A stretch of DNA of 20,891 nt from Deinococcales bacterium (GCA_043778225.1 JAYWGM010000057.1:1-20891), one strand, 5' to 3'. Shown: positions 1 through 20,891, counted from the first letter of the stretch. Notes: generated by a model from the letters alone, not told the origin. Program-made: numbers and translations.

Positions 1-168
1 CCGTGCTTTATCCTCGAGCAGCACAAAACGCCACGGTTGCGAATTAAAATGACTCGGCGCTCGAGAAGCCGCTTCCATCAGGGTTTTTTGGTGTTCACGA
101 CTGACTGGACGCGGGTCAAATGGTCCATTGGTGGTTTTGCGGTTCTGTAAAACTTCAAAAAAGTCCAT
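1..168 (-). CDS. Nitroreductase family protein (5' part; runs off window)
   Basis: Not in ORF track. The minus strand reads [56 protein letters not shown], with the nitroreductase APS-x-x-N-x-QPWRF motif. RBS AGGAG at 180..176. Confidence 0.9.
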
Positions 169-222
169 GGCAATGCTCCTGATGACATTCTACTTGTTTC
201 AGGTGCTTTGTCATGTCCCTGT

Positions 223-522
223 TCAACTTGGAATCAGCAAGCCAACATAGCCAAAAAGACCAGTCAAGGTTAAAACCGCATGGATTCTCGTGCCACCCTT
301 AAAACGTGGCAACACAGCCAAACAAAGCAAAGTCGGAATCAGAGACCACCAGCGCGAACTCGAGAGGGCGCTGGCAATTGCACTGACAAAAACACAAAAA
401 TACAGTGCATGATGCAGCCACTTGGCACGCCGCAAATGGTACAAACGCAACTGCAAACCTAGTCCAAAGCCCAGATTAACCAAGTACAAGCCCATACCCA
501 GCCACGGTGTCCAAATCGGCAT
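223..522 (-). CDS. Small hydrophobic membrane protein (99 aa), unknown function
   Basis: 3-4 hydrophobic segments (LGMGLYLVNLGFGLGL; HHALYFCVFVSAIA; LTLTGLFGYVGLLI). Start moved from 651 to ATG 522 because TATAGT lies 7 nt upstream. Confidence 0.7.
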   Translation of the reverse strand: MPIWTPWLGMGLYLVNLGFGLGLQLRLYHLRRAKWLHHALYFCVFVSAIASALSSSRWWSLIPTLLCLAVLPRFKGGTRIHAVLTLTGLFGYVGLLIPS

Positions 523-680
523 ACCATAAACTATACTGTGCAAGTGTGATGGATGACCAAACCACCTCAATTTATGGTGTACAATTCTTAAAGCACTGCT
601 GTCCCCTCCCAGATAGCAGTGCCTTTTTTTGGATGAACTTTTGTCAGACAAAAATCAGGTTCTTGGCATAAAATAAAGTT

Positions 681-1340
681 ATGAAGGCTCGAGTTTTACT
701 GATTGAAGATGATGCGGCTGTTCGGGCATCTCTGGCTCTGGGTTTACGGCTTGAAGGCTTAGAAGTGCTTGAAGCCGAGCGCGGTGTGTCGGGTTTAGCC
801 CTGCTCGAGAGGTTGCCCGATGTGGTGTTGCTCGATATTGTACTGCCTGGAATGGATGGCTTTGGGGTGCTCGAGCAAATCAGGGCGCGTTCGGTCGTGC
901 CAATTATCATGCTGACCGCTCTGGATGAAGTCAGTGCCAAAGTGCGCGGCTTAAAAGCTGGGGCAGACGATTATGTGGTCAAGCCCTACAGTTTGTCCGA
1001 AATTCTGGCTCGAATCGAAGCACTGTTGCGGCGCAGCAAAACCGAAGTTGTCCGCAGTCATTTTGCCGATGTGGTTTTGGATTTTATCACGCTCGAGGCA
1101 CGGCGCAGTGGGCGTTTACTCGAGGTCACACCCAAGGGTTTTAGCTTGCTGCAAGTGCTGTTTGAGCATCCACAACGGGTTTTGGCTCGAGAATCTTTAA
1201 TGCGCTCAGTCTGGGGACAAGAAGTAGACCCCAATACTCTGGATGCTTTAATTGCCAGTTTACGGCGCAGTCTTGGCAGCCCGAATTTAATCCAGACCGT
1301 GCGCGGCGTTGGCTATGCTTTGCGAGTTAGCCCAACATGA
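681..1340 (+). CDS. OmpR/PhoB family response regulator
   Basis: REC motifs LLIEDD, LLDIVLPGMDG, IIMLTA, GADDYVVKP; winged-helix end IQTVRGVGY; TAAAAT 6 nt before ATG. Confidence 0.95.
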   Translation: MKARVLLIEDDAAVRASLALGLRLEGLEVLEAERGVSGLALLERLPDVVLLDIVLPGMDGFGVLEQIRARSVVPIIMLTALDEVSAKVRGLKAGADDYVVKPYSLSEILARIEALLRRSKTEVVRSHFADVVLDFITLEARRSGRLLEVTPKGFSLLQVLFEHPQRVLARESLMRSVWGQEVDPNTLDALIASLRRSLGSPNLIQTVRGVGYALRVSPT

Positions 1341-1388
1341 CCCATGACGTGGCTGGTTCAGCATCCCATGACGTGGCTGGTTCAGCAT
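1341..1388. repeat. 24-bp perfect tandem duplication between response regulator and kinase
   Basis: CCCATGACGTGGCTGGTTCAGCAT at 1341-1364 and 1365-1388; CATGACCC at both 1336-1343 and 1386-1393. Confidence 0.95.
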
Positions 1389-2643
1389 GACCCTGCGTCT
1401 GCGCTTGCTGTTTTGGCTTGCACCATTAGCAGGTATTTTGGTTGGCATGATGGTTTGGTTTGCTTTACACCAAACCACTTCATTGGAATTTGTAAAACTC
1501 AGGGATACCCCACAAATACAAAACTCGATGGAAGCCCCTACGACTACAAAACCAGCCGAAGATTTAGCCAGTCCTGCAACTTCGAGCAGCCTTAATCCAT
1601 TTTGGGTCACCAAACCAGTCACACCGTCAAGCCCAACACCCCAAATCAATGCCGAGCCAGTGATTCCAACACCAAAAAGTACCACTGTTCAACCATTAAC
1701 TCGAGCAATTACCTTAGCGCAATTACAGACTCGACGTGAACCTACTTTGTTGCGTTTTAGTGCAGGACAACTCGAGGAGGTTCGAGCAGGTGACAGTTTT
1801 ACATTTTCCAACCAATCCACCATTTGGCTTGGCGGATTGCTGCTTTTATCAGTGGCGCTGCTGTTTGGTTCGGTTGGGGTACGGCGTTCGCTTGTGCCGC
1901 TCGAGCGTTTTGCTGCTGATATTGCCAGTCGCAATGCCAATCGGCTCGAGGCAATCGCCAGCCCGCCGTTGCCGGAATTAAAACCAGCCGTTCATGCCTT
2001 CAATGGCTTACTCGATGATTTACGCAGCAGCTTATCGCGGGCGCGGCTACAAGAACAAAGCGCTAAACGTTTTGCTTACAATGCCTCGCACGAACTGCGT
2101 AATCCACTGACCGCCGCCCGCAATTATCTCGAGGTTTTAGAGCGCCACCCAAGCGAACCCTTGGCAGCCCAACAAGCCCTTGAAGCGGTGCGTCGTACCG
2201 AACGTGTTTTGGGCAGTTTATTGACCTTGGCGCGGCTCGAGGGGCGCGGACAAGTGACTGGGCAAACGGTGCTGCTGCGCGACTTTTTAGAAGCCAATTT
2301 TGAATTGCCAGTGGTCGGCGAGGCAACCATTCTAGCCGAGCGCGATTTACTCGAGTTAGCAATCGAAAACTTAGTCAAAAATGCCAATGATCATGGGAGC
2401 GGTGCAACTCGTTTTGTGCTGGAAAATAACCGCCAACAAACATGGATTTGGCTCGAGGACGCGGGAATTGGTTTTGCCCCAGAGATACTGCCAACCGTGT
2501 TTGAGCCATTTGTTAAACTTGGCAACGGCACTGGTTTAGGGTTAGCAATTGTGGCAGCGATTGCCCAAGTGCATGGCGGCGAAACTCGAGCCGAAAATCT
2601 TGAAAAAGGCGCACGGGTTGGGATTGGCTTTACTCGTGTCTGA
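1387..2643 (+). CDS. Sensor histidine kinase (2 TM, HAMP, HisKA, HATPase_c)
   Basis: H-box ASHELRNPL, N-box IENLVKNA, DAGIG, F-box FEPF, G2 box GTGLGLAIV; two TM segments flanking a P/T/S-rich extracytoplasmic region. Confidence 0.95.
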   Translation: MTLRLRLLFWLAPLAGILVGMMVWFALHQTTSLEFVKLRDTPQIQNSMEAPTTTKPAEDLASPATSSSLNPFWVTKPVTPSSPTPQINAEPVIPTPKSTTVQPLTRAITLAQLQTRREPTLLRFSAGQLEEVRAGDSFTFSNQSTIWLGGLLLLSVALLFGSVGVRRSLVPLERFAADIASRNANRLEAIASPPLPELKPAVHAFNGLLDDLRSSLSRARLQEQSAKRFAYNASHELRNPLTAARNYLEVLERHPSEPLAAQQALEAVRRTERVLGSLLTLARLEGRGQVTGQTVLLRDFLEANFELPVVGEATILAERDLLELAIENLVKNANDHGSGATRFVLENNRQQTWIWLEDAGIGFAPEILPTVFEPFVKLGNGTGLGLAIVAAIAQVHGGETRAENLEKGARVGIGFTRV

Positions 2644-2674
2644 CTTTGCGGGCAATGCCCTTTTTGACCTCGCC

Positions 2675-2697
2675 GTGACTCGAGCCGCCCGAGTCAC
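2675..2697 (+). terminator. Hairpin after kinase (possible terminator)
   Basis: GTGACTCG-N7-CGAGTCAC perfect 8-bp stem; only a weak T-tract follows. Confidence 0.4.
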
Positions 2698-2710
2698 AAC
2701 ACTTTTAGGC

Positions 2711-2869
2711 ATGACGCACCTAGAAATTTGGCACAGCAAAACCAGATTTGTAATTCGTGTCCCGATTGAAAAAATTCGAGCTGCACTCGAGTCTCGCCCG
2801 AATGGCGAATGGCATTGGCTGGGTGGCGAAAATGGCAGCTGGTGGGCTGGTAAAGAGAAAATTCCATAG
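2711..2869 (+). CDS. Putative small protein (52 aa, Trp-rich)
   Basis: MTHLEIWHSKTRFVIRVPIEKIRAALESRPNGEWHWLGGENGSWWAGKEKIP fills the gap between genes. An AACACT -10-like box lies 7 nt upstream, and the ORF has an in-frame CTCGAG (LE). Confidence 0.45.
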   Translation: MTHLEIWHSKTRFVIRVPIEKIRAALESRPNGEWHWLGGENGSWWAGKEKIP

Positions 2870-2959
2870 TCAAATAAAGTTTTACCAGACAGCTTTTTTT
2901 CTGGGTTTTGGCTTTTTTCTGGTTTGGTCATGTAAAGTAAAGCGGCACAAGGAGGCATT

Positions 2960-3418
2960 ATGAAAAAGTGGTTACTGATTTTTGTGGCGATACTTGGTTT
3001 CTCGAGTCTGGCTGGAGCGCAGAGTTTTTCGATTGGTGGTGGCATTAGTGGTTCGGCAGGTAGCGACATCACCAGCACCCTGACCTTTAACATCATTTTA
3101 GGGATTCAGGATTTAGCGCGAATCGGACCAATTGGCGTGGATGGACGGGTTGAACTCGAGGGACAATTTTTTGGTAGCAGCATTGCTATTGGGGCTGGTG
3201 CAGCCGCATTAGCCACCTTTCAGGTCTCGACCGTGGTGATTTACGGTGGTCCTTCGGTGTTTTTGCCGATTACACCATCTGGAGCATTGCAAATCGGTGC
3301 GATTGCTGGTGTGCGTTACCAAATTGCTTTGGGTTTATCGGCATACGGCGAACTCAAATTGCGCTTTGTCAACCCAATTTTTTGGCGACTTGGTTTTGGC
3401 GTGAGTTACAGCTTCTAA
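2960..3418 (+). CDS. Small outer-membrane beta-barrel protein
   Basis: RBS AAGGAGG; signal peptide ending AGA/Q; alternating amphipathic beta strands; C-terminal GVSYSF aromatic beta-signal. Confidence 0.8.
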   Translation: MKKWLLIFVAILGFSSLAGAQSFSIGGGISGSAGSDITSTLTFNIILGIQDLARIGPIGVDGRVELEGQFFGSSIAIGAGAAALATFQVSTVVIYGGPSVFLPITPSGALQIGAIAGVRYQIALGLSAYGELKLRFVNPIFWRLGFGVSYSF

Positions 3419-3506
3419 ACCTTTAGCTCGAGTTACAGCTTCTAAACCTTTAGCTCGAGTTACAGTTTCTGAACCTTTAGCTCGATTTACAGCTTCTAAA
3501 CCTTTA
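3403..3506. repeat. 27-bp tandem repeat (3 full copies + 1 partial) spanning the junction of two convergent genes
   Basis: GAGTTACAGCTTCTAAACCTTTAGCTC at 3403, 3430, 3457 (2 mismatches) and 3484 (partial); no spacers. Confidence 0.95.
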
Positions 3507-4659
3507 ATCGCTCAAGGCGCGTGGCGGCAGCAGCTATCGTCTCGAGCGATTTACAAGCCGCAAATCGCAAGGCGTTGGGGGCTTTGGCTCTGGTGCTGGG
3601 GTCATAAAAAATCGGTACTGGCATGGCTGCGACACCAATTTCAGAAACCAAATAACGTACAAATTCTTGGCTATTGCTCGAGAAGTTATTGATGCCAGCC
3701 ACAATAAAATAGCCGCCTTGGGGCAGCATCGGGTCAAAGCCAGCTTGCTCGAGACACAAATATAGGGCGTTGCGCTGTGCCAGAAAACGGGCTTGCAGAG
3801 CCGCATAATAGCCATTTTGGGCGGCGGTCTCGAGACAAATCGCAATCGCTTCTTGGACAAAACCAGTCACATGAAACGGTATCCATTGGTGTGCGCCACG
3901 GATTGCATGGCTGATACTTTCGGGAGCAACTGCCCAACCAACCCGCCAACCAGTAACCGAAAAGATTTTGCCAGCACTGCCAACCGTAATCGTGCGCTCA
4001 CGCATTTCGGGTAAGGAAGCAAAACTGATGTGTGGTGCATCGAAGGTAATTCGGTCGTAGACCTCATCAGCAATCACCCAGAGGTCAAATTGGCGCACCA
4101 ACGCCGCAATGCCCTCGAGTTCGGCACGGCTAAAAACCTTACCAGTTGGGTTGTGTGGAGAATTGAGCAGAATCCCTTTGGTGCGTGGTGTAATTGCAGC
4201 TTGTAGTTGCTCGAGGTCAAGCACCCAAGCGCCGTCTTGGGGCAGGAGTTGCACAAAAACTGGAATCCCATCACAAAGCCGAACTTGTGGTGCATACGAG
4301 TCAAACTTTGGCTCGAGTAAAATCACTTCGTCGTTTGGATTGACCAGTGCCACCAGCGCTGCATGAATGGCTTGGGTTGCGCCAACTGTAATCGTAATTT
4401 CGGTCTGCGGATTGACTGCTCCGATTTGTGGCTCAAGCAGGGCAGCCACCGCCTCAAGCAGCCGATTGACTCCTCGCGGGGCGCTGTACTGATGCGAAGC
4501 ACTTTTGAGCGATTCCTCGGCAGCAGCCAGCACAAAATCGGGTGGTGACCAATCTGGGAAGCCTTGCCCCAGATTGACTGCCTGATGTTTTTGCGCCAAC
4601 GCGGTCAGTTCGGTAAATGGATTAGGGCTAAAACCCAAGACTCGAGAAGCAAGCTGCAT
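3496..4659 (-). CDS. PLP-dependent aminotransferase class I/II (YbdL / glutamine-phenylpyruvate / kynurenine aminotransferase-like)
   Basis: NLGQGFPD, NSPHNPTGKVF, ADEVY, PLP lysine motif SAGKIFSVTGWRVGW. Confidence 0.93.
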   Translation of the reverse strand: MQLASRVLGFSPNPFTELTALAQKHQAVNLGQGFPDWSPPDFVLAAAEESLKSASHQYSAPRGVNRLLEAVAALLEPQIGAVNPQTEITITVGATQAIHAALVALVNPNDEVILLEPKFDSYAPQVRLCDGIPVFVQLLPQDGAWVLDLEQLQAAITPRTKGILLNSPHNPTGKVFSRAELEGIAALVRQFDLWVIADEVYDRITFDAPHISFASLPEMRERTITVGSAGKIFSVTGWRVGWAVAPESISHAIRGAHQWIPFHVTGFVQEAIAICLETAAQNGYYAALQARFLAQRNALYLCLEQAGFDPMLPQGGYFIVAGINNFSSNSQEFVRYLVSEIGVAAMPVPIFYDPSTRAKAPNALRFAACKSLETIAAAATRLERLKV

Positions 4660-4664
4660 AAGTT

Positions 4665-4699
4665 TAGTTTAACCGTTCTCGCGCCAAACGGTTAAACTA
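4665..4699. promoter_or_regulatory. Symmetric divergent promoter: 13-bp perfect inverted repeat containing both -10 boxes
   Basis: TAGTTTAACCGTT-N9-AACGGTTAAACTA; each arm contains TAAACT exactly 6 nt before its ATG (4659 and 4705). Confidence 0.75.
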
Positions 4700-4704
4700 C
4701 TCGG

Positions 4705-5310
4705 ATGTTGACCCTTGAAAACAGCCTTGTTCGGCTTGAGCCTATCGCCGAAGCTCATATCCCCCAATTACTGGTAATTGCTCAAGCGACCCCAGAAGTG
4801 TACCGCCTGACCAACGCCCCGAGTACCTTGGCGGGCATGACCACTTATGTAGAAAGTGCCATCCAAGCTCGAGACCAGCGCCAAGCCGTGCCATTTGCGA
4901 CCATCAATGCCAAGACTGGCGAAGTTGTGGGCAGTACCCGCTTTGGCAACCTCGAGTATTGGGCTTGGGCAAACGGCAAGAAAGACATTCCAGATGCCGC
5001 CGAGATTGGCTGGACTTGGTTAGCACCCGCCGCCCAGCGCAGTGGTATCAATACCAACGCCAAATTGCTGATGCTCGAGTATGCCTTTGAAACGTGGCGG
5101 GTGCGGCGCATGACCTTAAAAACCGACGCTCGCAATCAACAATCCAGAAATGCCATTTTACGGATTGGCGCAACTTTTGAGGGTGTGCTTCGCAGCCATA
5201 TGCCAGCCACCGATGGGGGAGTGCGCGACACCGCAATGTTTAGCATTCTCGAGTCTGAGTGGCTGGGGGTCAAAAAGCATTTACTGGCTTTGGCGGCTCG
5301 AACAATGTGA
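4705..5310 (+). CDS. GNAT N-acetyltransferase, RimJ/RimL-like
   Basis: VVGSTRF, EIGWTWL, QRSGINT, DARNQQSRNAILRIGATFEGVLR, RDTAMFSIL motifs. Confidence 0.92.
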   Translation: MLTLENSLVRLEPIAEAHIPQLLVIAQATPEVYRLTNAPSTLAGMTTYVESAIQARDQRQAVPFATINAKTGEVVGSTRFGNLEYWAWANGKKDIPDAAEIGWTWLAPAAQRSGINTNAKLLMLEYAFETWRVRRMTLKTDARNQQSRNAILRIGATFEGVLRSHMPATDGGVRDTAMFSILESEWLGVKKHLLALAARTM

Positions 5311-5320
5311 CCGATTGTCC

Positions 5321-5337: not shown

Positions 5338-5356
5338 AAAATTTTACGTTCAGGTT

Positions 5357-8917: not shown

Positions 8918-8925
8918 TGGTCATC

Positions 8926-13105: not shown

Positions 13106-13145
13106 GTTGGCACACTGCTCGAGAGTGGTGAAATAAGGAGGGGTT

Positions 13146-13628
13146 ATGCCACGATATACAATCATTGTTGAAGGTAGCCATCTTGCGGTTCAGTCTGGCA
13201 GCTATAAAGCCTATGTTTATCGCTGTATGCTGCATCAAGACACCGCAAGAGCCAAAGCCATACCAAGTCGTTACACCATCAGCCAAGACGAAAGTATCGT
13301 CAATTTGGTCTGTCCGTGGATTCCAATTTTAATCAGTAATTGGGATGGCGATAAAAGTAAAATTAGCAAAGGTAAACTGGACAGCAAGGAGCGCAGCGAT
13401 ATTAGAGTCCACGCTGAACGAGAAAAAAAATGGGAGCATCTGCGTTACCAAGACTGGCAGTTGTATGTCTATTTGGGTGATGATGATTTAAGCTCAGACC
13501 ATACAATTTCTGGCGTTTGGGAAAAAGTCCCATTGGGCATACCCGAAATAGAACCAGACCCATCAGGCGGAGTCAAGATTCTCACAGCCGTTGGTCCCGG
13601 TGGTCCTCCGCCAAATGTTGGTCCTTAA
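13146..13628 (+). CDS. Hypothetical protein (160 aa), G/P-rich C-terminal tail
   Basis: Strong RBS AAGGAGG; 4-nt stop overlap with the convergent STAND gene; no family recognised. Confidence 0.75.
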   Translation: MPRYTIIVEGSHLAVQSGSYKAYVYRCMLHQDTARAKAIPSRYTISQDESIVNLVCPWIPILISNWDGDKSKISKGKLDSKERSDIRVHAEREKKWEHLRYQDWQLYVYLGDDDLSSDHTISGVWEKVPLGIPEIEPDPSGGVKILTAVGPGGPPPNVGP

Positions 13629-16420
13629 TATTCCCAAAAAAGCTGCTCAGGCGGCTGCGGTAACTGCTCGAGCAAAATACTTTTTTGCTCGAGCAGTCCA
13701 TGGAATTCTTTTTTTATCCAGTGTTTTAATTCGAGTCGTGACGATAAATAAGCGGCTGCCTGCCTAGCTCGCGTGGTGTTATTTTCTTCTAACTGCATCT
13801 GAAAAAAATACCAAACAGCATGGTCGGTCAAAGAATCAATCTGATTTGTCTGGGCAATACGAATAGCATCGAGTAAGTATTGTTGGGCTTGTTGCCTATT
13901 TTGACCTTGCAAATAGAAATAGGCGTTGGCAAGTAGACCAAAAGCCTCGAGCATTTTGCTTTGCGATTCTGGGCGTTCTGACAATAATTTTTGTAAAATC
14001 TGAGCCTGACTTAAACAATGATGCTGACTATAAAAAAATATCGAATAGGTCAGCATCAGTTGAATAATAAATTCTTCTTGAATCTGTTCAGCCGATTTCA
14101 AAGTTTTGGCAATAAACAATTCAAGCTCGGCAAAAGCCTTTGGTAGACTAAAAACATATAAATCAACCAAAGCAACATTCAGATACAAGGCACTTTTGAT
14201 GTCTTTGCTGATTTCATAAATCTCTTGTACCCTCAAGTAACATCCGATTGCCTCTTCATACCGACCCTGACCAACATAGAGATTGGCTAAATTTTGCAGT
14301 GCCACAGCTTCTCGGGTATGTAATCCGAGGGCTGAAGCCAACTCGACTGATTTTTGAAAGTAAAAAAGTTGTTTTTCCCAGTGATTATAGGCACTACCCA
14401 AGACATTCCATACTTTTAATTTGTGCATCGCTGGCGAGTGGTCATCGAGTAATTGCTCGGCTCGAGTTGCCAGCATAAGGGCAGCTTGTCCTCGAGCAGT
14501 ACGATGCGCCAACCATGCGGCGTTGGCGTACAACAAAAGTAAAACGTGGGTTGTCGCTTCTTCTTTTTCGTATCCCAATGCCATGCTTGGCTCGAGAACC
14601 CGTATCGCTGCTTCAAAAAGCTGTATCCCTTCGGTAAATCTTGCCCGTGCATCAAACAGTAAAACCACATCTTGTAATCGTTTAAACCGTGTGTAATCTG
14701 GATTTTTACACAACCAAAGCCAAGCACTTTTACAATTCTCTAAATCGGTTTCAAAAGCAGCCAGAACACTCGCGGCGCGTTCACTGCGAACATCGGCAGC
14801 GTTTAATTCAAGCCAATCCAAAAAGAAATTGGCATGGTTGCTTCTGGCTTTTTGCTGCTCGAGTGGAATGGCTTCGAGCGCTTCGAGGCAATACTGAGCA
14901 ATCAATGGATGCAGTCGGTAACGTCCATGCTGCTGATTTTGCACCAAGGATTTTTGCAGTAAAGCAATCAGCATGATTAAGTTGCTGTCTATCATGTTTA
15001 AGGCAGCGACCCGAGAAAACCCATCCTTAAAAACGGCAAGTCGGGCTAATGCCATGCGTTGCGGATTACTCAGCAACGACCATGACCAGTTAAACACGGC
15101 TCTGATGCTGTTGTGTCTGCCGTTGTGTTGGGTTGTCAGAACATCCAAGTGTTGGTGCAAAGCACTTAAAATATCGGTCAGTGGTAAAACAGGTGTCAGT
15201 GCCGCCGCCAATTCGATGGCTAAGGGATAACGCTCGAGCAAATCACAAATTTTAAGCACAACTGGGTTATTCGGCTCGAGTTTTATACCAGAACGCAAAG
15301 CACAAATACTAAAAAACTCGAGGGCGGTGCTGTCAGATTCAAAGCCCGAGAGTGGCAGTACCACCTCGCCCAGCACATTCAGGCGTTCTCGGCTGGTGAC
15401 CAGTATTTGCAAAGCCGAACAAGCGGCGAGTATATCCAGTAAAGACGGCGTAAACTCGAGCAGATGCTCAAAATTATCTAAAACCAACAGTGTTTTAGAT
15501 TGCCCAATATGCTGCTTTAACTGCTCGAGTGCATCGGACTTTATTTCTGTTTCGCCCAACGCCCTAAGACAAGTAAAAGACACTTCAGAGCTATCCATAA
15601 CCGCTTCGAGCGCCACAAAACAGACCTGAAAACTTGTTTGTAATTCTAGGGCTACCTCGAGGGCTAACCGCGACTTACCCGCACCACCATAGCCAACGAT
15701 CGAAACCAAACGGTTATCTTGCAAGTATTCGGTCAGCACAGCTTGTTCTGGGCGTTCCACAAAGCGATTGAGCGGTATTGGCAAAGAACTGATTTGAGAT
15801 TGAAACTTAAAATCGGGGATACTCAAACCCAATTCAAGGGCTTCGCGCCGCACCAAGACGGCTAAATCATCCTGACCCCATTCAAGCACCCGCAAAACCC
15901 GCAGTAAGACATCGGGTTCTAAACTTGTATTGCCTTCGACACTGTAGGCAGCTTGGGCGGCTCGAGTTGCCACTTCAAGATTATTTTGTTTAAGCGCCGC
16001 TTCGGCAAGCCGCAAGTGTGCCAAAGAAACCCGAGCCGCAAGGTATTCGCTGGTGGTCAGCAGCCACTCTTCAAATTCGGCAACGCCCAAATCCAAACCA
16101 TGCAAAAACGCACCGGTGTACAAAGCCACTGCCTTTTGATCATCGCCAGCATCCAAAGCCTCGAGCAAACCCTGAGCATCCGAAGGCACAGCGCAACCCA
16201 GTAAATCCGCCTTCTCGAGCAAGACCCCCGCAGTTCTTAGTTGCTTCAGCGCCATTCGCAAACTCGCCGCAGCATCGGCAGCAGCACCCCACAGCAAATC
16301 ACGCACATGACCACGGGATTTAAGCCCCTCGAGTGCGAGGTATGCCAACAAGGACAACGGCTTAGGGCGGGTTAAAGCACTCCCCTCGAGCCGCAGTCCT
16401 CCCAGTGTTTTGAGTTGCAC
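13625..16420 (-). CDS. AfsR/SARP-like regulator: wHTH + short BTAD + STAND (NB-ARC-type) ATPase + TPR
   Basis: N-terminal QLKTLGGLRL..LLAYLALEG..LLW; BTAD-like AVALYTGAFL..FEEWL; Walker A GYGGAGKS; Walker B LLVLDNFE; VTSRE; YPLAIEL; HPLI; TPR helices. Start likely GTG 16420, with TATAAT 7 nt upstream overlapping ATG 16429. Confidence 0.9.
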   Translation of the reverse strand: MQLKTLGGLRLEGSALTRPKPLSLLAYLALEGLKSRGHVRDLLWGAAADAAASLRMALKQLRTAGVLLEKADLLGCAVPSDAQGLLEALDAGDDQKAVALYTGAFLHGLDLGVAEFEEWLLTTSEYLAARVSLAHLRLAEAALKQNNLEVATRAAQAAYSVEGNTSLEPDVLLRVLRVLEWGQDDLAVLVRREALELGLSIPDFKFQSQISSLPIPLNRFVERPEQAVLTEYLQDNRLVSIVGYGGAGKSRLALEVALELQTSFQVCFVALEAVMDSSEVSFTCLRALGETEIKSDALEQLKQHIGQSKTLLVLDNFEHLLEFTPSLLDILAACSALQILVTSRERLNVLGEVVLPLSGFESDSTALEFFSICALRSGIKLEPNNPVVLKICDLLERYPLAIELAAALTPVLPLTDILSALHQHLDVLTTQHNGRHNSIRAVFNWSWSLLSNPQRMALARLAVFKDGFSRVAALNMIDSNLIMLIALLQKSLVQNQQHGRYRLHPLIAQYCLEALEAIPLEQQKARSNHANFFLDWLELNAADVRSERAASVLAAFETDLENCKSAWLWLCKNPDYTRFKRLQDVVLLFDARARFTEGIQLFEAAIRVLEPSMALGYEKEEATTHVLLLLYANAAWLAHRTARGQAALMLATRAEQLLDDHSPAMHKLKVWNVLGSAYNHWEKQLFYFQKSVELASALGLHTREAVALQNLANLYVGQGRYEEAIGCYLRVQEIYEISKDIKSALYLNVALVDLYVFSLPKAFAELELFIAKTLKSAEQIQEEFIIQLMLTYSIFFYSQHHCLSQAQILQKLLSERPESQSKMLEAFGLLANAYFYLQGQNRQQAQQYLLDAIRIAQTNQIDSLTDHAVWYFFQMQLEENNTTRARQAAAYLSSRLELKHWIKKEFHGLLEQKSILLEQLPQPPEQLFWEY

Positions 16421-16443
16421 GCTTCTCATTATAACGTGTTTGG

Positions 16444-16465
16444 GCTTAGGCGCGTCTGGCTTGAG
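16444..16465. repeat. 22-bp imperfect direct repeat / palindrome, copy 1 (copy 2 at 18472-18493)
   Basis: GCTTAGGCGCGTCTGGCTTGAG vs GCCTAAGCGCGTCTGGCTCGAG, 3 mismatches. Confidence 0.6.
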
Positions 16466-16602
16466 TCAAAACAGTGTTTTCTCGAGCATCCACTGTGCTG
16501 CTTTGGCTGTTCGTGAAGGATTTTTTAATCGCGCTCGTGTGTTACCAAGCGCCATCAGTACCAAATCTTTATTTGTCCGAATCAGACTTAAAATAAATTT
16601 AT

Positions 16603-16648
16603 TAGGATGTATCGCTTCAAGTCCGTAGGATGTACCGCCTCAAGTCCG
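16603..16648. repeat. 23-bp tandem duplication
   Basis: TAGGATGTATCGCTTCAAGTCCG / TAGGATGTACCGCCTCAAGTCCG, 2 mismatches. Confidence 0.9.
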
Positions 16649-16797
16649 TGAGACTCGAGAATCATCGTTTGGAATACCAACCAGATCACCTCTTTGATGA
16701 ACTTCGGATTCTCGAGTTAGCTGAACGTATCCGCAACAGCACCGAACGTGATACATTTTTAGAAAATCTCGTACTGCTCGAGTTCTTCAGTGCTTAG
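16630..16797 (+). CDS. Putative small ORF (55 aa), probably interrupted by the Rpn cassette
   Basis: MYRLKSVRLENHRLEYQPDHLFDELRILELAERIRNSTER...; its middle recurs at 17766-17821 as ELWILELAERIRKKRQT*. Confidence 0.4.
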   Translation: MYRLKSVRLENHRLEYQPDHLFDELRILELAERIRNSTERDTFLENLVLLEFFSA

Positions 16798-17721
16798 TCC
16801 CGTAATAGCTTTTATTTGCGCTAACGTTAGCCCTGCGGCTTTTGAATTCCTTGCTATCTCAAGTTTAGCTTCTAATTTTCCTTCTTCACGCCCTCGAGCC
16901 TCCCCTCGAGCCTCCCCTCGAGCTTCCCCTCGAGCCTCCCCTCGAGCCTCCCCAATTGCCTCCGCTTCTTCCACTGCTGTTTTTAGCGTTGCATAATTAT
17001 CGCGCAGGATTTTAAGACTCTGCTGGTAGCTTTCTCGCTCTTTTGGCTCGAGATTGGCGAGTTTAGCTGTTTCAAACGCATTGGTAAACACTTCATCTTT
17101 AAGAAGTTCTGGAATACTTTGTAAATCCTCTAAATTCTTAATAAAATACAACCACTTATCAAGTCATGTTTCTAACTCCTCGAGACGCTTATTAAAATTT
17201 GGAATCTCGAGGTAAATCAGGCTTAACTTGTCACAGAAAACCAAGTTATTCTGGTCTTTAAGTTCAACCAAGTGAACCACTTGTTTAGCACCCACTTTAT
17301 CATCATCAAAAGTAAATCCCAGAACACCAATGCAGTAAACTGGCTCGAGACGATAATCCCAATCCCCTTTCTTAGCCTGCTCCTGAATCGGAAACGTAGC
17401 GTAAAAAAGAGTTCTGTCCTTAAAAAAGTTTTGCTTGAGTTTTTGCAATTCAACAATAAAGTATTCCCCATTCAAACCTTGACAGTAAATATCATAAATC
17501 GCTTTACGATCATTTTCGCCTTTTGGTAATTGCTCTGGGTTCTTAAAACTCAAATCTTTTATTTGGGCGACTGCTGGTAATAACGAATTCAGGAAGTCAA
17601 TTAAGTGTGGTTTACTGGCTTCTTGTCTTGACCCCAAAACGCCACCTGACGGGGCTGGGTCGCCACCAAAGATTTTTTTGAATCCAAAATCTGTGAATGG
17701 ATTAACGAAGGTGTTTGCCAT
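16759..17721 (-). pseudogene. Rpn family recombination-promoting nuclease / PD-(D/E)XK putative transposase with one in-frame TGA
   Basis: NPFTDFGFKKIFG, YDIYC, FIVELQK, DRTLFY, YLEIPNF, DKWLYFIKN, EIARN..I..ITGLS. The track ORFs 17164-17721 and 16759-17151 share one frame: ELET-TGA(17166..17164)-LDKWLYF. Confidence 0.9.
16891..16950. repeat. 12-bp coding tandem repeat x5 (EARG), each unit containing CTCGAG
   Basis: CCCTCGAGCCTC units at 16891, 16903, 16915, 16927 and 16939. Confidence 0.95.
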
Positions 17722-17965
17722 GATGCAAATAGTAGCAAAGCAAATCTTTTTTTCCTAGAGTAAAAATGAACTTTGGATTCTCGAGTTAGCCGAACGCATC
17801 CGCAAAAAACGCCAAACTTAACACAATCACACTCAAATTACATGACTAAACCACACGCCTAGTTTTCTTGGTGGGCTGTTGGTGGGTAGTGGTTTGCTAC
17901 TCTCATCATGCACATTAAAACAACACGGTAATTGAATCAAACCAAGCAGCAAAAGGAGCGCATAA

Positions 17966-18460
17966 ATGCCCAAATGGATAGCCCAAACCAATGTAGACGC
18001 ATTTTACGGCAACCCTCGCGGACGCAACGGAAGTGCCTCACCCACATGGGAACGCGAAAACCTAATCATCATCCCAGCCCCTTGGAAACTGGTTACATCA
18101 TAGGACGGAACACTGGTGCGTGGCATTCGGATTCACAAAAAATGCGCGGATAGCCTAAGCACTGTCCTCGAGAGCATCTGGCAAGCCTCAGGCAGAAAAG
18201 AACAACAAATCCGAGTTTGGGGAATGCACTTATTTGGCGGGGCTTACAACTATAGGTTAATGCGCGGGGTGAACCAATTATCCATGCATGCATGGGGTTG
18301 TGCGGTGGACTTTGACCCAGCCAAGAATGGTTTTGGGGATAGTACGCCAGCTTTTGAGCAGCATAAGCCTGTACTCGAGGTATTTGCCGATGAGGGTTGG
18401 ACATGGGGAGGGAAATGGAGCAACCTAGACGGAATGCACTGGCAAGCGGCGGATGTGTAA
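17966..18460 (+). pseudogene. M15 family metallopeptidase (D-Ala-D-Ala carboxypeptidase / L-Ala-D-Glu peptidase-like) with one in-frame TAG
   Basis: RBS AAAGGAG then ATG 17966: MPKWIAQTNVDAFYGNPRG...PWKLVTS-TAG(18101)-DGTLVRGIRIHKKC, in frame with track ORF 18116. Zn motifs SMHAWGCAVD and WGGKW...DGMHWQ are present. Confidence 0.88.
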
Positions 18461-18466
18461 AGCCGC

Positions 18467-18501
18467 CTCGAGCCTAAGCGCGTCTGGCTCGAGAAATTTT
18501 T
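18467..18501 (+). terminator. Hairpin built from two CTCGAG sites after the M15 gene
   Basis: CTCGAGCC-N11-GGCTCGAG, then AAATTTTT. Confidence 0.5.
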
Positions 18502-18503
18502 GG

Positions 18504-18538
18504 TGTTTACGGCTTGTTTACGGTCTGGTTTGTAAGCT
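18504..18538 (+). promoter_or_regulatory. Direct-repeat activator box plus -10 (copy 2)
   Basis: TGTTTACG at 18504 and 18515; TAAGCT at 18533, the same geometry as 13071-13105. Confidence 0.7.
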
Positions 18539-18567
18539 GTTCTGACTCGAGCAAAGGAGCGGCAAAC

Positions 18568-18648
18568 ATGAACGCGAATGAAGGGTTAAATCGGGTTTTG
18601 GTCATTAAACTGCTTTCTAAGGTACTAAGAAAATTATCTAAAATTTAA
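18568..18648 (+). CDS. Putative 26-aa cationic amphipathic peptide
   Basis: RBS AAAGGAG 8 nt before ATG; MNANEGLNRVLVIKLLSKVLRKLSKI*; downstream of promoter copy 2. Confidence 0.45.
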   Translation: MNANEGLNRVLVIKLLSKVLRKLSKI

Positions 18649-18685
18649 CTCAAATAAATTGTGTTCAAAAGCCCTTCATGTTCAC

Positions 18686-18742
18686 CTGAATTTTTTCAGC
18701 TTTTTTTCAAGGCAAATTCAACCCCGACCTGAAAAAATTCAG
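18686..18742. promoter_or_regulatory. Pair of CTGAA-N4-TTCAG palindromes (14-bp inverted repeat)
   Basis: CTGAATTTTTTCAG (18686-18699) and CTGAAAAAATTCAG (18729-18742) are exact reverse complements. Confidence 0.5.
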
Positions 18743-18834
18743 ACCATGGAAAATCTCGAGGGTCAAACGGTGTGGTCAGGGTTCACAAAAAATTAGGTAT
18801 TACGACTCGAGACAACTCGAGCAAAAGGGGAAGT

Positions 18835-19818
18835 ATGAAAAAAACATTTTGGAAATTCGGTATGGTCACAACAATTTTGGCAGGATTACTCACAGCTTGC
18901 CCAACACCAGTACCACCAGCACCAGTGGTCAGCAGCATAACCGTAACAGGCGCACCAAGCGACAACAATATCAAAATGAACGTACCAGTACCACTAACCG
19001 CAAGCGCCTTAGATTCAAGCGGCACAGCCATAGCAGGAGCAACCTTTACTTGGGTCTCGAGTAACCCCGATGCGGTCAGTGTAGACGCGGCAGGAGTGGT
19101 CACAGCTAAGAAATTTGGTGCCGCAATTATTACTGCGAGTTCGGGTGGTATTTCAGGAGCGACAGCCAGTCAAACAACCTATGGTCTCGAGGCAACTTTT
19201 GGGACTTGGGCAACTGGTACAAATTCTGCATATGGGACAAACCATCTTTATCGCTTTCGCCTAAAAACTGGACAAGCTATTCCAGTACAAACCAGTCTTA
19301 GCTTTAGTACAACTGGACCGACCGGGTGGAACAATAACATTGCAAGTGTGACAAGCTGTGAAACCGGGACTGTGACATTAAATAGCTTGGGCTGTACTCG
19401 AACACTGGCGATTGCTCCAGTGTCAGGTAACTATCAGATGAGTGTGACATATAATAATGAAACTTTTGTTAGTCAATCTGTAGCTGTAGACATCACCGCG
19501 CCAGCCCTGGATCGTTTGGTAATTACCATAACTCAAGCCTCGATAAATGCTGTTTCTGCGACTTGGACAAGCGTAGCAGGGGCGCAGGTTTACTATATGA
19601 GGGTTCTAAATAACACTGACCAAACTTCGGATAAATCATCGCCTTGGCTAACCACAACTGGTGCAACCATTTCTGGTTTAGCGCTGGATACGACAAAAAA
19701 TCCAAGTATTTTTGTATATGGGTACAATTTTGATGCTAGAAATATCGGTACTATCACGTTTCCTGCAAATTCGAGAATGGTAAATCAAGGCAAAGCAATC
19801 ACCATTCCCACACCATAA
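18835..19818 (+). CDS. Lipoprotein with Ig-like (Big_2) domain and FN3-like C-terminus
   Basis: MKK start, lipobox LTAC; Big_2 pattern FTWVSSNPDAVSVDAAGVVTAKKFGAAIITAS; FN3-like ATWTSVAGAQVYYMRV. Start moved to ATG 18835 (AGGGG RBS). Confidence 0.85.
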   Translation: MKKTFWKFGMVTTILAGLLTACPTPVPPAPVVSSITVTGAPSDNNIKMNVPVPLTASALDSSGTAIAGATFTWVSSNPDAVSVDAAGVVTAKKFGAAIITASSGGISGATASQTTYGLEATFGTWATGTNSAYGTNHLYRFRLKTGQAIPVQTSLSFSTTGPTGWNNNIASVTSCETGTVTLNSLGCTRTLAIAPVSGNYQMSVTYNNETFVSQSVAVDITAPALDRLVITITQASINAVSATWTSVAGAQVYYMRVLNNTDQTSDKSSPWLTTTGATISGLALDTTKNPSIFVYGYNFDARNIGTITFPANSRMVNQGKAITIPTP

Positions 19819-19920
19819 TTGTATGAAATGAGGTTTCACTTCTCTTACAAAATGCCTGAACTACTGTGGGCGTGAGTGTAATGACCTTGCGCCTTCCACA
19901 AACTCAATAAATTCTCGAGG

Positions 19921-19954
19921 CATTTAAGGCTTGTTTGCGACTAAGTTTTAGGCT
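19921..19954 (+). promoter_or_regulatory. Degenerate direct-repeat box plus -10 (copy 3)
   Basis: CATTTAAG-GCT-TGTTTGCG-N9-TAGGCT, then CTCGAG and AAAGGAG as in copy 2. Confidence 0.45.
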
Positions 19955-19982
19955 GCCTCGAGACACCCCAAAGGAGAAAATT

Positions 19983-20201
19983 ATGAAAATTCAATATGGT
20001 TTATTAAACGTAGTGGGTACAACTTGGGCTTTTACTTTCCATGCCAACGGCAAAGTCCTCAATCAGCCAATGCCAAATGGTTTGAGTACGCTTGATATTT
20101 TGGATCAACTCGGTAGTAACGGCTGGGAACTCTGCGACAAAAATAATTTTGTACCACCTATCACAAGTCCTGATGAATGGGTTTTCTTACGGCGTTTATA
20201 G
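19983..20201 (+). CDS. Small protein, DUF4177-like (72 aa)
   Basis: RBS AAGGAG; ILDQLGSNGWEL...WVFLRR resembles the LN.LG..GWELV...FKR pattern. Confidence 0.7.
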   Translation: MKIQYGLLNVVGTTWAFTFHANGKVLNQPMPNGLSTLDILDQLGSNGWELCDKNNFVPPITSPDEWVFLRRL

Positions 20202-20260
20202 CCAAGTTCTAAACGTTCTATGCGGCGTTACTCAAGAATGCTTCAAGCCCATCATCTCGA

Positions 20261-20288
20261 GCCACCCGCTTATGCTCTAGCGGGTGGC
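20261..20288. terminator. Strong 10-bp hairpin
   Basis: GCCACCCGCT-N8-AGCGGGTGGC perfect inverted repeat, no clean U-tract. Confidence 0.55.
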
Positions 20289-20316
20289 AAATTATTCAAC
20301 ACACAAGGCGGTTTTT

Positions 20317-20754
20317 ATGCAGCGTTTAACCCTGATGGCTTTACTCGGCTTTTTCGCCTATTTTTTGCTGGCGTGCGCTCCTGCCGCCACTTCCGACGAC
20401 AATGCAGACTTGAATAATCTCGAGAATTTAGTTTGGAAAACCACTCGTGTTGAAGCAAGCCGCGTGGTTTTAGCACAGGTTCGTTCTTTTGATCTGCTCT
20501 TTGCCAATGCTTCCGAACGAGAAATCAGTAAAACTCTACTCGAAATTGTGGCTCGAGCCGAGGCGTACAAGGATACAAACGGTAAACTCTACCAACCAAG
20601 TATTTTAATCTCGAGCCAAGGCAATAACGTGGTGCTTACTTTTGCAGATTTGGTCGCCGAAACACCAGATTTAGAACAGAATGTCTTATCCAGTCGGCTG
20701 TTCAAATCGGTTATCAAAGCAATGGATGCTGTGTTTACTCGAGGAAAATTATAA
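20317..20754 (+). CDS. Lipoprotein, unknown function
   Basis: MQRLTLMALLGFFAYFLLAC signal with lipobox LLAC; start at ATG 20317. Confidence 0.8.
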   Translation: MQRLTLMALLGFFAYFLLACAPAATSDDNADLNNLENLVWKTTRVEASRVVLAQVRSFDLLFANASEREISKTLLEIVARAEAYKDTNGKLYQPSILISSQGNNVVLTFADLVAETPDLEQNVLSSRLFKSVIKAMDAVFTRGKL

Positions 20755-20788
20755 ATCATCACTATTGGCTACTCTCGCGCTTATACTT

Positions 20789-20814
20789 AAAAACCCCACC
20801 TTTTCAAGTGGGGT
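20789..20814 (-). terminator. Hairpin with minus-strand U-tract (likely terminator of a gene beyond the window)
   Basis: AAAA-ACCCCAC-N8-GTGGGGT. Confidence 0.5.
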
Positions 20815-20891
20815 GTAGCCTCTCTAAAATTGCTTAATTTCCACTTTGTAACATCGCCCCTAAACTCGTTCCGCCATCTCGAGGAATTAAA

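What the first reader, a model, noticed from the sequence alone, without database searches (positions are those of the whole stretch)
1..20891. CTCGAG is a highly iterated palindrome (~140 copies vs ~5 expected)
Seen: a hand count gives about 140 CTCGAG in 20.9 kb (~7/kb), against roughly 1 per 4 kb by chance. It occurs in all three coding frames (LE at 804; GCT-CGA-GTT at 688; TTC-TCG-AGT at 3001), so dipeptide bias does not explain it. It also occurs intergenically: at tandem-repeat junctions (3427, 3454), in the Rpn-flanking repeats (16711, 17780), as hairpin arms (18467/18488) and just upstream of RBSs (13118, 18546, 18816, 19957). Established: cyanobacterial HIP1 (GCGATCGC) and Neisseria/Pasteurellaceae uptake sequences show similar frame-independent enrichment, whereas restriction sites are usually avoided. 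Inference: a HIP-like system, possibly tied to an orphan CTCGAG methyltransferase with biased repair, recombination, chromosome organisation or DNA uptake. I recall similar enrichment in Meiothermus but cannot verify it here.
Basis: partly seen in the sequence, partly recalled or inferred. Interest (0 to 1): 0.85.

Follow-up and report, generated by a model that had tools for sequence, protein, structure and literature searches.

The report
Hyper-abundant CTCGAG palindrome in Deinococcota
The six-letter palindrome CTCGAG occurs about every 160 bases throughout this uncultured relative of Deinococcus, and more weakly through much of its phylum; it is re-created wherever the DNA tolerates it and even reshapes proteins, much like the unexplained HIP1 word of cyanobacteria and the DNA-uptake words of Haemophilus.

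Summary
The window holds 143 CTCGAG against 2.5 expected. The whole 4.03-Mb genome holds 24,877, or 6.2/kb, at equal density in coding and non-coding DNA and in all three frames. It is not an artefact: 19 of 19 genomes of the family show it and two samples hold the window at 100% identity. This scan has already noted the same word at least 8 times on other DNA.

New results here:
- Enrichment is graded across the phylum (0.3x to 10x) and differs sharply within one genus.
- Individual sites persist no better than ordinary synonymous codon choices (phi 0.32 vs 0.29), so "conservation" reflects a ~70% stationary frequency.
- rRNA and tRNA resist the word, and weakly conserved proteins accumulate extra Leu-Glu.
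- No XhoI nuclease, Vsr, MutH or shared orthologous methyltransferase tracks the enrichment.

Best reading: a weak genome-wide fixation bias of the uptake-sequence or HIP type, with the enzyme unknown. The orphan-methylase idea is not supported.

The parts
1..20891 (.). Window-wide sample of the genome-wide word: 143 CTCGAG (6.85/kb). 117 lie in ORFs (73 as CTC|GAG, 30 as xCT|CGA|Gxx, 14 as xxC|TCG|AGx) and 26 lie in 3,510 non-coding bases.
804..809 (+). Example in frame CTC|GAG (Leu-Glu), in the response-regulator gene 681-1340.
688..693 (+). Example in frame xCT|CGA|Gxx (GCT CGA GTT), same gene.
3001..3006 (+). Example in frame xxC|TCG|AGx (TTC TCG AGT), in ORF 2960-3418.
3405..3500 (+). Intergenic 27-bp tandem repeat (3 full units plus a partial one). 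CTCGAG spans the unit junctions at 3427 and 3454; the third junction is degenerate (CTCGAT at 3481).
16890..16952 (.). 12-bp tandem array x5 (CCTCGAGCCTCC-like) with sites at 16893, 16905, 16917, 16929 and 16941, inside the C-terminal ORF piece (16759-17151, minus strand) of the split PDDEXK_2 gene.
16700..16736 (+). Left copy of a 37-bp direct repeat (3 mismatches to the right copy) carrying CTCGAG at 16711. It flanks the split Rpn/PDDEXK_2 gene.
17769..17805 (+). Right copy of the 37-bp direct repeat, carrying CTCGAG at 17780.
18467..18493 (+). Two copies 21 bp apart that pair as an 8-bp stem followed by AAAUUUUU (terminator-like). The fold is not significantly better than shuffles.
13118..13123 (+). 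Intergenic copy 12 bases upstream of AGGAGG and the ATG of ORF 13146-13628. Similar copies lie at 18546, 18816 and 19957.

Best explanation
CTCGAG is a real, lineage-wide 'highly iterated' word. It is kept at about 6 copies per kb by a weak, position-independent bias that favours fixation of any allele spelling CTCGAG. It is not maintained by function at particular sites.

Shown here:
- The word fills about two thirds of all places where it costs nothing (Leu-Glu spelled CTC GAG), whatever the gene's constraint.
- It sits at equal density in non-coding DNA.
- It is re-created between species as fast as ordinary synonymous sites turn over.
- It adds extra Leu-Glu pairs mainly to weakly conserved proteins.
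- It is kept out of rRNA and tRNA.

Inferred: the bias comes from a sequence-specific step in DNA traffic. I think the most likely source is preferential uptake or recombination of self DNA carrying the word during natural transformation, which is molecular drive as modelled for USS/DUS and now proposed for HIP1. The alternative is a biased repair step. Either would act with a strength comparable to codon-usage selection or biased gene conversion. The protein that reads the word is not identified, and it is not a methyltransferase conserved across the enriched genomes.
For: Reality and scale:
- 143 sites vs 2.46 expected in the window.
- 24,877 in 4.03 Mb, three times the next hexamer, with weak flank preference; all 98 contigs >5 kb carry 4.0-10.6/kb.
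- 6.17/kb in coding vs 6.19/kb in non-coding DNA; frames 13,037/4,484/4,668.
- 9.4x over synonymous-codon shuffles (2,364 +/- 44, 20 replicates) and 21x over codon permutation.

Global pressure rather than site function:
- 13,037 of 18,851 Leu-Glu pairs (69%) are CTCGAG, while CTC is 18% of Leu codons and GAG 38% of Glu codons.
- Against congener G003 (215 gene pairs, 71,725 codons), sites are shared at 61/52/64% by frame vs 27% for other hexamers.
- At conserved Leu-Glu positions the motif state has phi 0.32, inside the range for the modal codon pair of 123 other dipeptides (median 0.29, IQR 0.20-0.37). P(motif | partner lacks it) is 0.41.
- Between families, sharing at conserved Leu-Glu positions is 15 observed vs 13.1 expected by independence.

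Limited by constraint:
- tRNA genes hold 6 sites in 5.3 kb (33 expected at genome density).
- In enriched G013, 16S plus 23S hold 1 site in 4.4 kb while the flanks carry 4.7-7.3/kb.
- Over 166 genes, sites/kb and Leu-Glu/kb fall with protein conservation (rho -0.25 and -0.34). The fraction of Leu-Glu spelled CTCGAG does not (0.66 vs 0.64 in the extreme quartiles).

Proteome effect, as reported for uptake sequences (abstract of PMC2817400):
- Leu-Glu O/E is 2.33, vs 0.94-1.43 in non-enriched relatives.
- In the same aligned columns G000 has 105 Leu-Glu and non-enriched G158 has 56.
- At 57 of 75 CTCGAG-encoded Leu-Glu, G158 has another dipeptide.
- R-M islands of low GC carry 0-0.8 sites/kb.

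Other:
- One-mismatch neighbours form only a small halo (O/E 1.4-1.5). Two-mismatch words are at baseline.
- ComEC and DprA are present in 13 of 13 genomes tested.
- HIP1 raises transformation in a cyanobacterium (abstract of 10.1101/2024.09.10.611283).
Against: - No uptake or repair protein specific to enriched genomes was found. ComEC and DprA are equally present in non-enriched genomes, so they support nothing specific.
- Known uptake sequences are 9-12-bp non-palindromes. A 6-bp palindrome points instead to a two-fold symmetric reader such as a restriction or modification-type enzyme.
- A pure drive should give a higher density in less constrained non-coding DNA. G000 shows equality, and samples of other genomes go both ways.
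- In alignable non-coding DNA, sites are shared at 63% vs 30% for other hexamers. Xu et al. (PMC5861425, section read) would read that as selection against loss.
- Neighbours closer than ~30 bp are depleted (4.0% of gaps are <=20 bp vs 11.7% expected). This fits diminishing returns per site, a selection-type feature.
- Drive and weak selection make nearly the same predictions for every statistic I could compute.
Confidence: 0.5

Rival explanations
1. Direct selection on the sites themselves. A high, roughly even density of CTCGAG is useful to the cell, for example as a self-marker read by a defence or recombination nuclease (Chi-like), as a strand or identity signal for repair, or as a binding word for a nucleoid protein. 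Weak selection per site keeps the density up.
For: - Equal density in coding and non-coding DNA.
- Sites shared at twice the control rate in alignable non-coding DNA (102 of 161 vs 30%).
- Depletion of very close neighbours.
- Trait kept in 19 of 19 genomes of a family spanning 49-61% GC.
- Xu et al. argue the same for HIP1 from conservation and periodicity (PMC5861425: abstract and sections 18 and 25 read).
Against: - At conserved Leu-Glu positions, sites persist no better than neutral-like synonymous choices.
- Density falls by 29% from weakly to strongly conserved genes.
- rRNA operons of 4.4 kb do without the word, so no strict local requirement exists.
- Per-site benefit among 25,000 sites would be minute.
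- A congener (G158) lives with 0.3/kb.
- No candidate reader protein was found.
Confidence: 0.3
2. Methylation-directed repair ratchet (Elhai's HIP model). An orphan methyltransferase marks CTCGAG, or its TCGA core, and a strand-choosing nuclease makes mismatch repair keep new sites and restore damaged ones.
For: - One-mismatch variants are biased to the outer positions. Outer transversions have O/E 1.5-1.6 vs 0.6-1.2 for inner ones. Elhai reported the same pattern for HIP1 (abstract), and it suggests an inner TCGA core.
- 68% of all TCGA lie inside CTCGAG.
- The genome carries about 25 methylase-like genes and avoids some 35 other palindromic hexamers.
- The model can give large enrichment without selection (section 3.4 of PMC4390886).
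Against: - No orthologous methylase is shared by G000, G013, G042 and G157 in Pfam families PF00145, PF01555, PF02384, PF07669 and PF02086.
- G013 (one contig) has no N6/N4 enzyme and one unrelated m5C enzyme.
- G042's only m5C gene lies in a locus with 1 site in 4 kb.
- Enriched G156 has no hit in any of the five families, though it is only 58% complete.
- The only TaqI_C-type methylase of G000 is in 3 of 19 family genomes, and one of those copies has a stop.
- No Vsr. MutH-like genes in 3 of 41 genomes.
- No excess C-to-T decay at the central CpG (CTTGAG O/E 2.04 vs 1.9-2.5 for other transitions), so m5C there is unlikely.
Confidence: 0.12
3. Trivial causes: codon or dipeptide usage, a short mobile repeat, or an assembly or library artefact.
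For: 59% of coding sites are in the Leu-Glu frame. In a Thermus-like relative all 23 coding sites are in that frame and match the codon-usage product.
Against: - 9.4x excess over protein- and codon-preserving shuffles.
- Same density in non-coding DNA.
- Flanks are near random, so it is not a longer repeat.
- Seen in 19 of 19 family genomes and in other families.
- Contigs of two samples match the window at 100%.
Confidence: 0.01

Closest known systems
HIP1 (GCGATCGC) and the alternate HIPs of cyanobacteria (Elhai 2015, PMC4390886; Xu, Lawrence and Durand 2018, PMC5861425)
   Same: - A palindromic word far above expectation, in all frames and between genes.
- Shared between related genomes more than control words.
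- One-off variants biased to the outer positions.
- Clade-wide with exceptional members that lack it.
- Mechanism unknown.
   Different: - Different word, phylum and scale: about 6/kb here, against about 1/kb stated for HIPs.
- No cognate methyltransferase could be tied to it here, whereas Elhai reports one wherever a HIP is frequent.
- Here conservation is explained by a high stationary frequency rather than by persistence of sites.
- Periodicity was not testable in a 107-contig assembly.
DNA uptake sequences of Pasteurellaceae (USS) and Neisseriaceae (DUS) (Findlay and Redfield 2009, PMC2817400, abstract read)
   Same: - Thousands of copies.
- Encoded peptide roughly doubled in the proteome.
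- Preferentially in poorly conserved genes and residues.
- Scarce in recently acquired genes.
- Occasional pairs forming terminator-like hairpins.
- Transformation genes present.
   Different: - USS and DUS are 9-12-bp non-palindromes at about 1/kb, with experimentally shown uptake bias.
- Here the word is a 6-bp palindrome at 6/kb and no uptake data exist.
- By my recollection, which no call tested, Thermus and Deinococcus take up DNA without sequence preference. Both lack the enrichment.
Very-short-patch repair bias at CCWGG in E. coli (Dcm/Vsr), recalled from memory and not read here
   Same: A repair enzyme tied to a methylase site shifts word frequencies genome-wide without selection on the sites.
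   Different: - The effect in E. coli is small, by my recollection.
- No Vsr was found here.
- The transition neighbours that such a system should deplete are the most abundant ones.
XhoI / PaeR7I-type restriction-modification target
   Same: Same 6-bp recognition word. XhoI-family nucleases with adjacent methylases exist in sister families.
   Different: - Restriction targets are normally avoided, and here the word is enriched.
- No XhoI-family nuclease in 19 of 19 enriched-family genomes.
- No close homologue of the linked methylases.

Membership tests
Highly iterated palindromes (HIP1 and alternate HIPs) | Palindromic word many-fold above expectation genome-wide | tested here: met
   143 vs 2.46 in the window. 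24,877 copies, the top hexamer by 3x. 9.4x over synonymous shuffles.
Highly iterated palindromes (HIP1 and alternate HIPs) | Present in all reading frames and in non-coding DNA | tested here: met
   Frames 13,037/4,484/4,668; 6.17/kb coding vs 6.19/kb non-coding.
Highly iterated palindromes (HIP1 and alternate HIPs) | Sites shared between related genomes more than control words | tested here: met
   61/52/64% by frame vs 27%. Non-coding 63% vs 30%. Persistence at Leu-Glu positions equals the synonymous baseline.
Highly iterated palindromes (HIP1 and alternate HIPs) | A methyltransferase specific for the word (or its core) present where the word is frequent | tested here: inconclusive
   No orthologue shared among four enriched genomes in five Pfam methylase families. 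Specificity cannot be read from sequence, and no methylome data are available.
Highly iterated palindromes (HIP1 and alternate HIPs) | One-off variants biased to the first and last positions | tested here: met
   Outer transversion variants O/E 1.5-1.6; inner ones 0.6-1.2.
Highly iterated palindromes (HIP1 and alternate HIPs) | Periodic spacing at 10-90 kb | not testable with these tools
   The assembly has 107 contigs. Short-range spacing is near-exponential (CV 1.0) with depletion below 30 bp.
Highly iterated palindromes (HIP1 and alternate HIPs) | Cyanobacterial lineage and GC-rich octamer or related word | tested here: not met
   Different word. The phylum of Deinococcus and Thermus is inferred from kinship groups and earlier notes. 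This is an analogue, not a member in the strict sense.
DNA uptake sequences (USS/DUS) | Encoded peptides over-represented, sites at poorly conserved residues, scarce in acquired genes | tested here: met
   Leu-Glu O/E 2.33. Partner has Leu-Glu at 24% of motif positions vs 29% background dipeptide identity. Density falls with conservation. R-M islands carry 0-0.8/kb.
DNA uptake sequences (USS/DUS) | Competence machinery present | tested here: met
   ComEC and DprA in 13 of 13 genomes, but also in non-enriched ones.
DNA uptake sequences (USS/DUS) | Preferential uptake of DNA carrying the word | not testable with these tools
   Needs uptake or transformation assays.
DNA uptake sequences (USS/DUS) | Asymmetric 9-12-bp motif | tested here: not met
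   A sharply defined 6-bp palindrome; flanking positions reach at most 31% for any base.
Type II restriction target (XhoI type) | Cognate nuclease present and site avoided | tested here: not met
   PF04555 in 0 of 19 family genomes; the site is enriched, not avoided.

The most novel reading that the evidence does not exclude
CTCGAG is the self-recognition word of a DNA uptake or recombination step that is ancestral to much of Deinococcota and was lost in Deinococcus and Thermus, the two genera everyone studies. It would be the first palindromic, hexamer-sized uptake or recombination signal. Together with HIP1 it would show that 'highly iterated palindromes' are one general phenomenon of naturally transformable bacteria, driven by biased fixation rather than by function at each site.
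Probability: 0.3. Interest if true: 0.85.

Novelty: new variant of a known kind. Interest (0 to 1): 0.7.

Why it matters
HIP1 has been unexplained for thirty years and was known only from cyanobacteria. This is a second case: independent, six times denser, and in a phylum with easily transformed, well-studied relatives.

It comes with natural contrasts that make the question testable:
- Genomes of one genus at 7-8.6/kb versus 0.3/kb.
- A graded series from 0.3x to 10x.
- GC contents from 49% to 67%.

It also shows that the usual argument, that conserved sites imply selection, can fail when a word has saturated its free positions.

Practical consequences:
- The word flags foreign DNA in these genomes.
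- It doubles one dipeptide in the proteome.
- It makes XhoI cut this DNA about every 160 bp, unless the DNA is methylated.

Tried and rejected
Candidate genes:
- XhoI-family nuclease: 0 of 19 family genomes.
- Homologues of the two methylases adjacent to XhoI nucleases in G021/G033 and G031: best match 26% identity.
- Methylase orthology across G157, G156, G042, G013 and non-enriched G158 for PF00145, PF01555, PF02384, PF07669 and PF02086. Nothing is shared by all. Only G000-G157 pairs were found, at 49-67%.
- The one TaqI_C-type methylase of G000: present in 3 of 19 family genomes, one copy broken.
- Vsr: none.
- MutH-like: 3 of 41, sporadic.
- Rpn/PDDEXK_2 nucleases: only the window's genus (5 of 5 genomes tested) plus G157.
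- ComEC and DprA: in all 13 genomes, so not discriminating.
- Motif density inside methylase genes as a filter: not discriminating.

Statistics that did not decide:
- Regular spacing: CV 1.0, no regularity beyond short-range depletion.
- Deficit of one-mismatch partners at non-shared sites (14-24% vs 46-47%). I first read this as an attractor signal. It can also come from background AT-ending codon preference and from faster-evolving surroundings, and the genome-wide one-off words are not depleted, so I do not rely on it.

Data limits:
- Population variants: only assembled contigs were served, with no raw reads. The strain in the second sample is identical, so no recent substitutions could be scored.
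- rRNA of the window's own genome: not assembled, so relatives were used instead.

Literature: four full-text searches found no description of CTCGAG enrichment in any bacterium. The only methylome hit is an m5C CTCGAG methylase in an archaeon with 560 sites (passages of PMC8112702). Supplements of the HIP papers were not opened.

Full report
**1.

The window has 143 CTCGAG. Dinucleotide-preserving shuffles give 2.46 (largest 6), and 0 of 100 reach 143. Their frames and contexts are as described.

The window is a fair sample of its genome, G000 (4,029,277 bases, 107 contigs, 48.7% GC).
- CTCGAG occurs 24,877 times (6.2/kb).
- The next most frequent hexamers are its own overlaps. The first unrelated one has 5,347 copies, the median hexamer 796, and the next palindrome 2,854.
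- Flanking positions are close to random, with at most 31% for any base. The unit is therefore the bare hexamer, not a longer repeat.
- All 98 contigs above 5 kb carry 4.0-10.6 copies per kb.

**2. It is not codon usage, dipeptide usage or an artefact**

I called genes greedily as the longest non-overlapping ORFs of 90 codons or more (3,585 ORFs, 89% of the genome). This is an approximation.

| Measure | Result |
|---|---|
| Density in ORFs | 6.17/kb |
| Density outside ORFs | 6.19/kb |
| Frame CTC\|GAG | 13,037 |
| Frame xCT\|CGA\|Gxx | 4,484 |
| Frame xxC\|TCG\|AGx | 4,668 |
| Observed in ORFs | 22,189 |
| Synonymous-codon shuffle within genes (protein and codon usage kept, 20 replicates) | 2,364 +/- 44 |
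| Permuting whole codons | 1,030 |

As for artefact, 19 of 19 genomes of the family (five genera, separate assemblies) carry 4.3-6.8/kb. Contigs from two samples of one study also match the window at 100% identity over multi-kb pieces.

**3. Where it occurs**

A pattern count over 364 genomes of the phylum shows a wide range.
- The family f1 is uniformly extreme.
- In a second family (f3), G156 has 8.6/kb, G157 has 7.0/kb and G042 has 3.6/kb. G158, of the same genus as G156 and G157, has 0.3/kb.
- The 111 genomes of the large Deinococcus-like genus g7 mostly have 0.01-0.3/kb.

Raw counts mislead in GC-rich genomes, so I sampled 5-60 kb from 17 genomes and normalised by synonymous shuffles.

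| Genome | Observed / synonymous shuffle |
|---|---|
| G157 | 10x |
| G000 (whole genome) | 9.4x |
| G342 (family f2, 52% GC) | 8.6x |
| G013 | 5.0x |
| Sampled genera of f2, f4 and f5 | 2.1-4.4x |
| G031 | 1.5x |
| G158 | 1.3x |
| Thermus-like G022 | 0.7x |
| Deinococcus-like G020 and G152 | 0.3x |

- In the moderately enriched genomes, 52-75% of Leu-Glu pairs are already spelled CTCGAG, against 6-40% expected from codon frequencies.
- What sets the extreme genomes apart is the filling of the other two frames and of non-coding DNA, plus extra Leu-Glu.
- The trait spans 49-67% GC.
- These samples are small and the genomes are related, so the grading is descriptive, not a test.

**4. It has changed proteins**

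- Leu-Glu is 2.33 times its expectation from amino-acid frequencies; Glu-Leu is 0.97. In non-enriched relatives Leu-Glu is 0.94-1.43.
- In 19 orthologous gene pairs with non-enriched G158 (6,057 aligned codons, 50% identity), G000 has 105 Leu-Glu and G158 has 56.
- At the 75 CTCGAG-encoded pairs, G158 has Leu-Glu at 18 (24%; any dipeptide is identical at 29%). Elsewhere it often keeps either the Leu or the Glu (LT, LD, VE, AE, LK and so on).
- Among conserved dipeptides between G000 and G003, Leu-Glu is the commonest by far: 1,034 against 245 or fewer for the other types printed.

**5. Sites are re-created, not preserved**

I compared G000 with 400 kb of congener G003: 215 gene pairs, 71,725 codons, 77% nucleotide identity, 61% third-position identity at conserved residues.
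- By frame, 61%, 52% and 64% of sites are CTCGAG at the same position, against 27% for other hexamers.
- In alignable non-coding DNA, 102 of 161 sites are shared (63% vs 30%).

Taken alone, this is the argument Xu et al. used for selection on HIP1. But at positions where both species have Leu-Glu, the two-by-two table is [[165,115],[189,565]].
- A position lacking the word in one species has it in the other 41% of the time.
- The correlation is phi 0.32.
- The same statistic for the commonest codon pair of 123 other conserved dipeptides has median 0.29 (IQR 0.20-0.37).

So the state "CTCGAG here" is inherited no better than an ordinary synonymous choice. Its high co-occurrence comes from a stationary frequency near 70%. 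Between families, sharing at conserved Leu-Glu positions (15) equals the expectation from independence (13.1).

As a back-of-envelope inference, not a computed result: the stationary odds are shifted some 10-25-fold relative to neighbours. That corresponds to a scaled bias of roughly 2.5-3, the range of codon-usage selection or biased gene conversion.

**6. Constraint limits it**

- tRNA genes hold 6 sites in 5.3 kb, where 33 would be expected at genome density.
- In enriched G013, 16S has none and 23S has one (4.4 kb in all), while the 3-kb flanks hold 14-22 each.
- Over 166 genes, density falls with protein conservation: 7.33 vs 5.20 sites/kb in the extreme quartiles.
- That fall is entirely due to fewer Leu-Glu pairs (7.13 vs 4.20 per kb). 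The share of them spelled CTCGAG is constant at 0.66 vs 0.64.
- Low-GC restriction-modification islands have 0-0.8 sites/kb.

These are the properties Findlay and Redfield list for uptake sequences (abstract).

**7. Looking for the cause**

No gene tracks the trait.
- XhoI-family nucleases are absent from the 19 family genomes. Three genomes of sister families have them beside two kinds of methylase, neither of which has a close homologue in G000.
- G000 has about 25 methylase-like genes.
- I profiled five methylase families in enriched G157, G156, G042 and G013 and in non-enriched G158. No orthologue is common to the enriched genomes.
- G013, a single contig, has no N6/N4 enzyme. The lone m5C genes of G013 and G042 are unrelated.
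- The only TaqI_C-type enzyme of G000 occurs in 3 of 19 family genomes.
- Vsr is not found. MutH-like genes are in 3 of 41 genomes and Rpn nucleases in one genus plus G157.
- ComEC and DprA are everywhere.

Limits of this search: only Pfam-detectable families were covered, the genomes are incomplete MAGs, and target specificity cannot be read from sequence.

Two hints remain for a methylation link:
- 68% of all TCGA lie inside CTCGAG.
- One-off variants at the outer positions are enriched even for transversions.

Against m5C at the central CpG: its C-to-T products are no commoner than other transition neighbours.

**8. Reading**

A weak, genome-wide fixation bias toward CTCGAG explains all measured features. 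Whether it arises from biased uptake or recombination, from biased repair, or from weak selection on density cannot be settled with sequence alone. I put about 0.5 on drive, 0.3 on direct selection, and 0.12 on the specific methylase ratchet.

**9. Novelty**

Four full-text searches found no report of this enrichment. Elhai's survey mentions neither the word nor the phylum.

Within this scan it is not new. At least eight earlier notes describe it in this and related genomes, and one of them was later marked 'part of it fell'.

- The matched-baseline result that sites are re-created rather than preserved.
- The phylum-wide grading with codon normalisation.
- The within-genus contrast.
- The rRNA/tRNA and conservation gradients.
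- A broad negative result on methylases and repair nucleases.

Noticed in passing
whole genome G000: About 35 of the 64 palindromic hexamers are nearly absent, at fewer than 100 copies where ~1,000 would be average. Examples: GGCGCC 3, GACGTC 1, GGGCCC 1, AGGCCT 1, CTGCAG 13, GAGCTC 24. This fits a long history of many restriction systems. GAGCTC, the same half-sites in the opposite order, is near zero in every strongly CTCGAG-enriched genome. No two CTCGAG copies are directly adjacent.
   Followed up: partly
window 16759-17721 (minus strand), with repeats at 16700-16736 and 17769-17805: A PDDEXK_2/Rpn-type nuclease gene is split by an in-frame TGA and flanked by a 37-bp direct repeat. Contig depth roughly doubles to triples over 16.7-18.0 kb in both samples, so the element is multi-copy. 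The family is confined to this genus plus G157 among 41 genomes.
   Followed up: partly
window 16890-16952: A 12-bp unit repeated five times, each carrying CTCGAG, lies inside the C-terminal ORF piece of the Rpn-like gene. It would encode a 4-residue peptide repeat.
   Followed up: no
window 3405-3500: A 27-bp tandem repeat (three units and a part) sits between ORF 2960-3418 and the convergent aminotransferase gene. CTCGAG forms each unit junction.
   Followed up: no
window 18524-18795: Contigs in both samples join 18524 to 18795 with 10 other letters in between, at depths of 15 (X1) and 32.8 (X2), similar to the surrounding depth. Either a variant lacks these 270 bases or a second locus shares the flanking 58 bases.
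   Followed up: no
G158 (loci L113, L116, L117): The non-enriched congener has three 16S genes with very different model scores (1,526, 1,183 and 1,115 bits), which suggests divergent or damaged rRNA copies.
   Followed up: no
G021 (L002) and G033 (L001): An XhoI-family nuclease lies convergent with a 340-aa N6/N4 methylase. G021, sampled, is enriched 2.5x for CTCGAG; G033 was not sampled, but its raw count is not low (3,870 in 2.1 Mb). If these systems cut CTCGAG, the usual site avoidance is missing.
   Followed up: partly
G000 contig C40:7894-11011: Three adjacent ORFs, including an N6/N4 methylase, have 32% GC and no CTCGAG at all. This is a clear recent import.
   Followed up: no
window 13625-16429 (minus strand): A 934-aa STAND-type NTPase (AAA_22/NB-ARC) with TPR repeats, of the kind often found in defence or signalling loci.
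   Followed up: no
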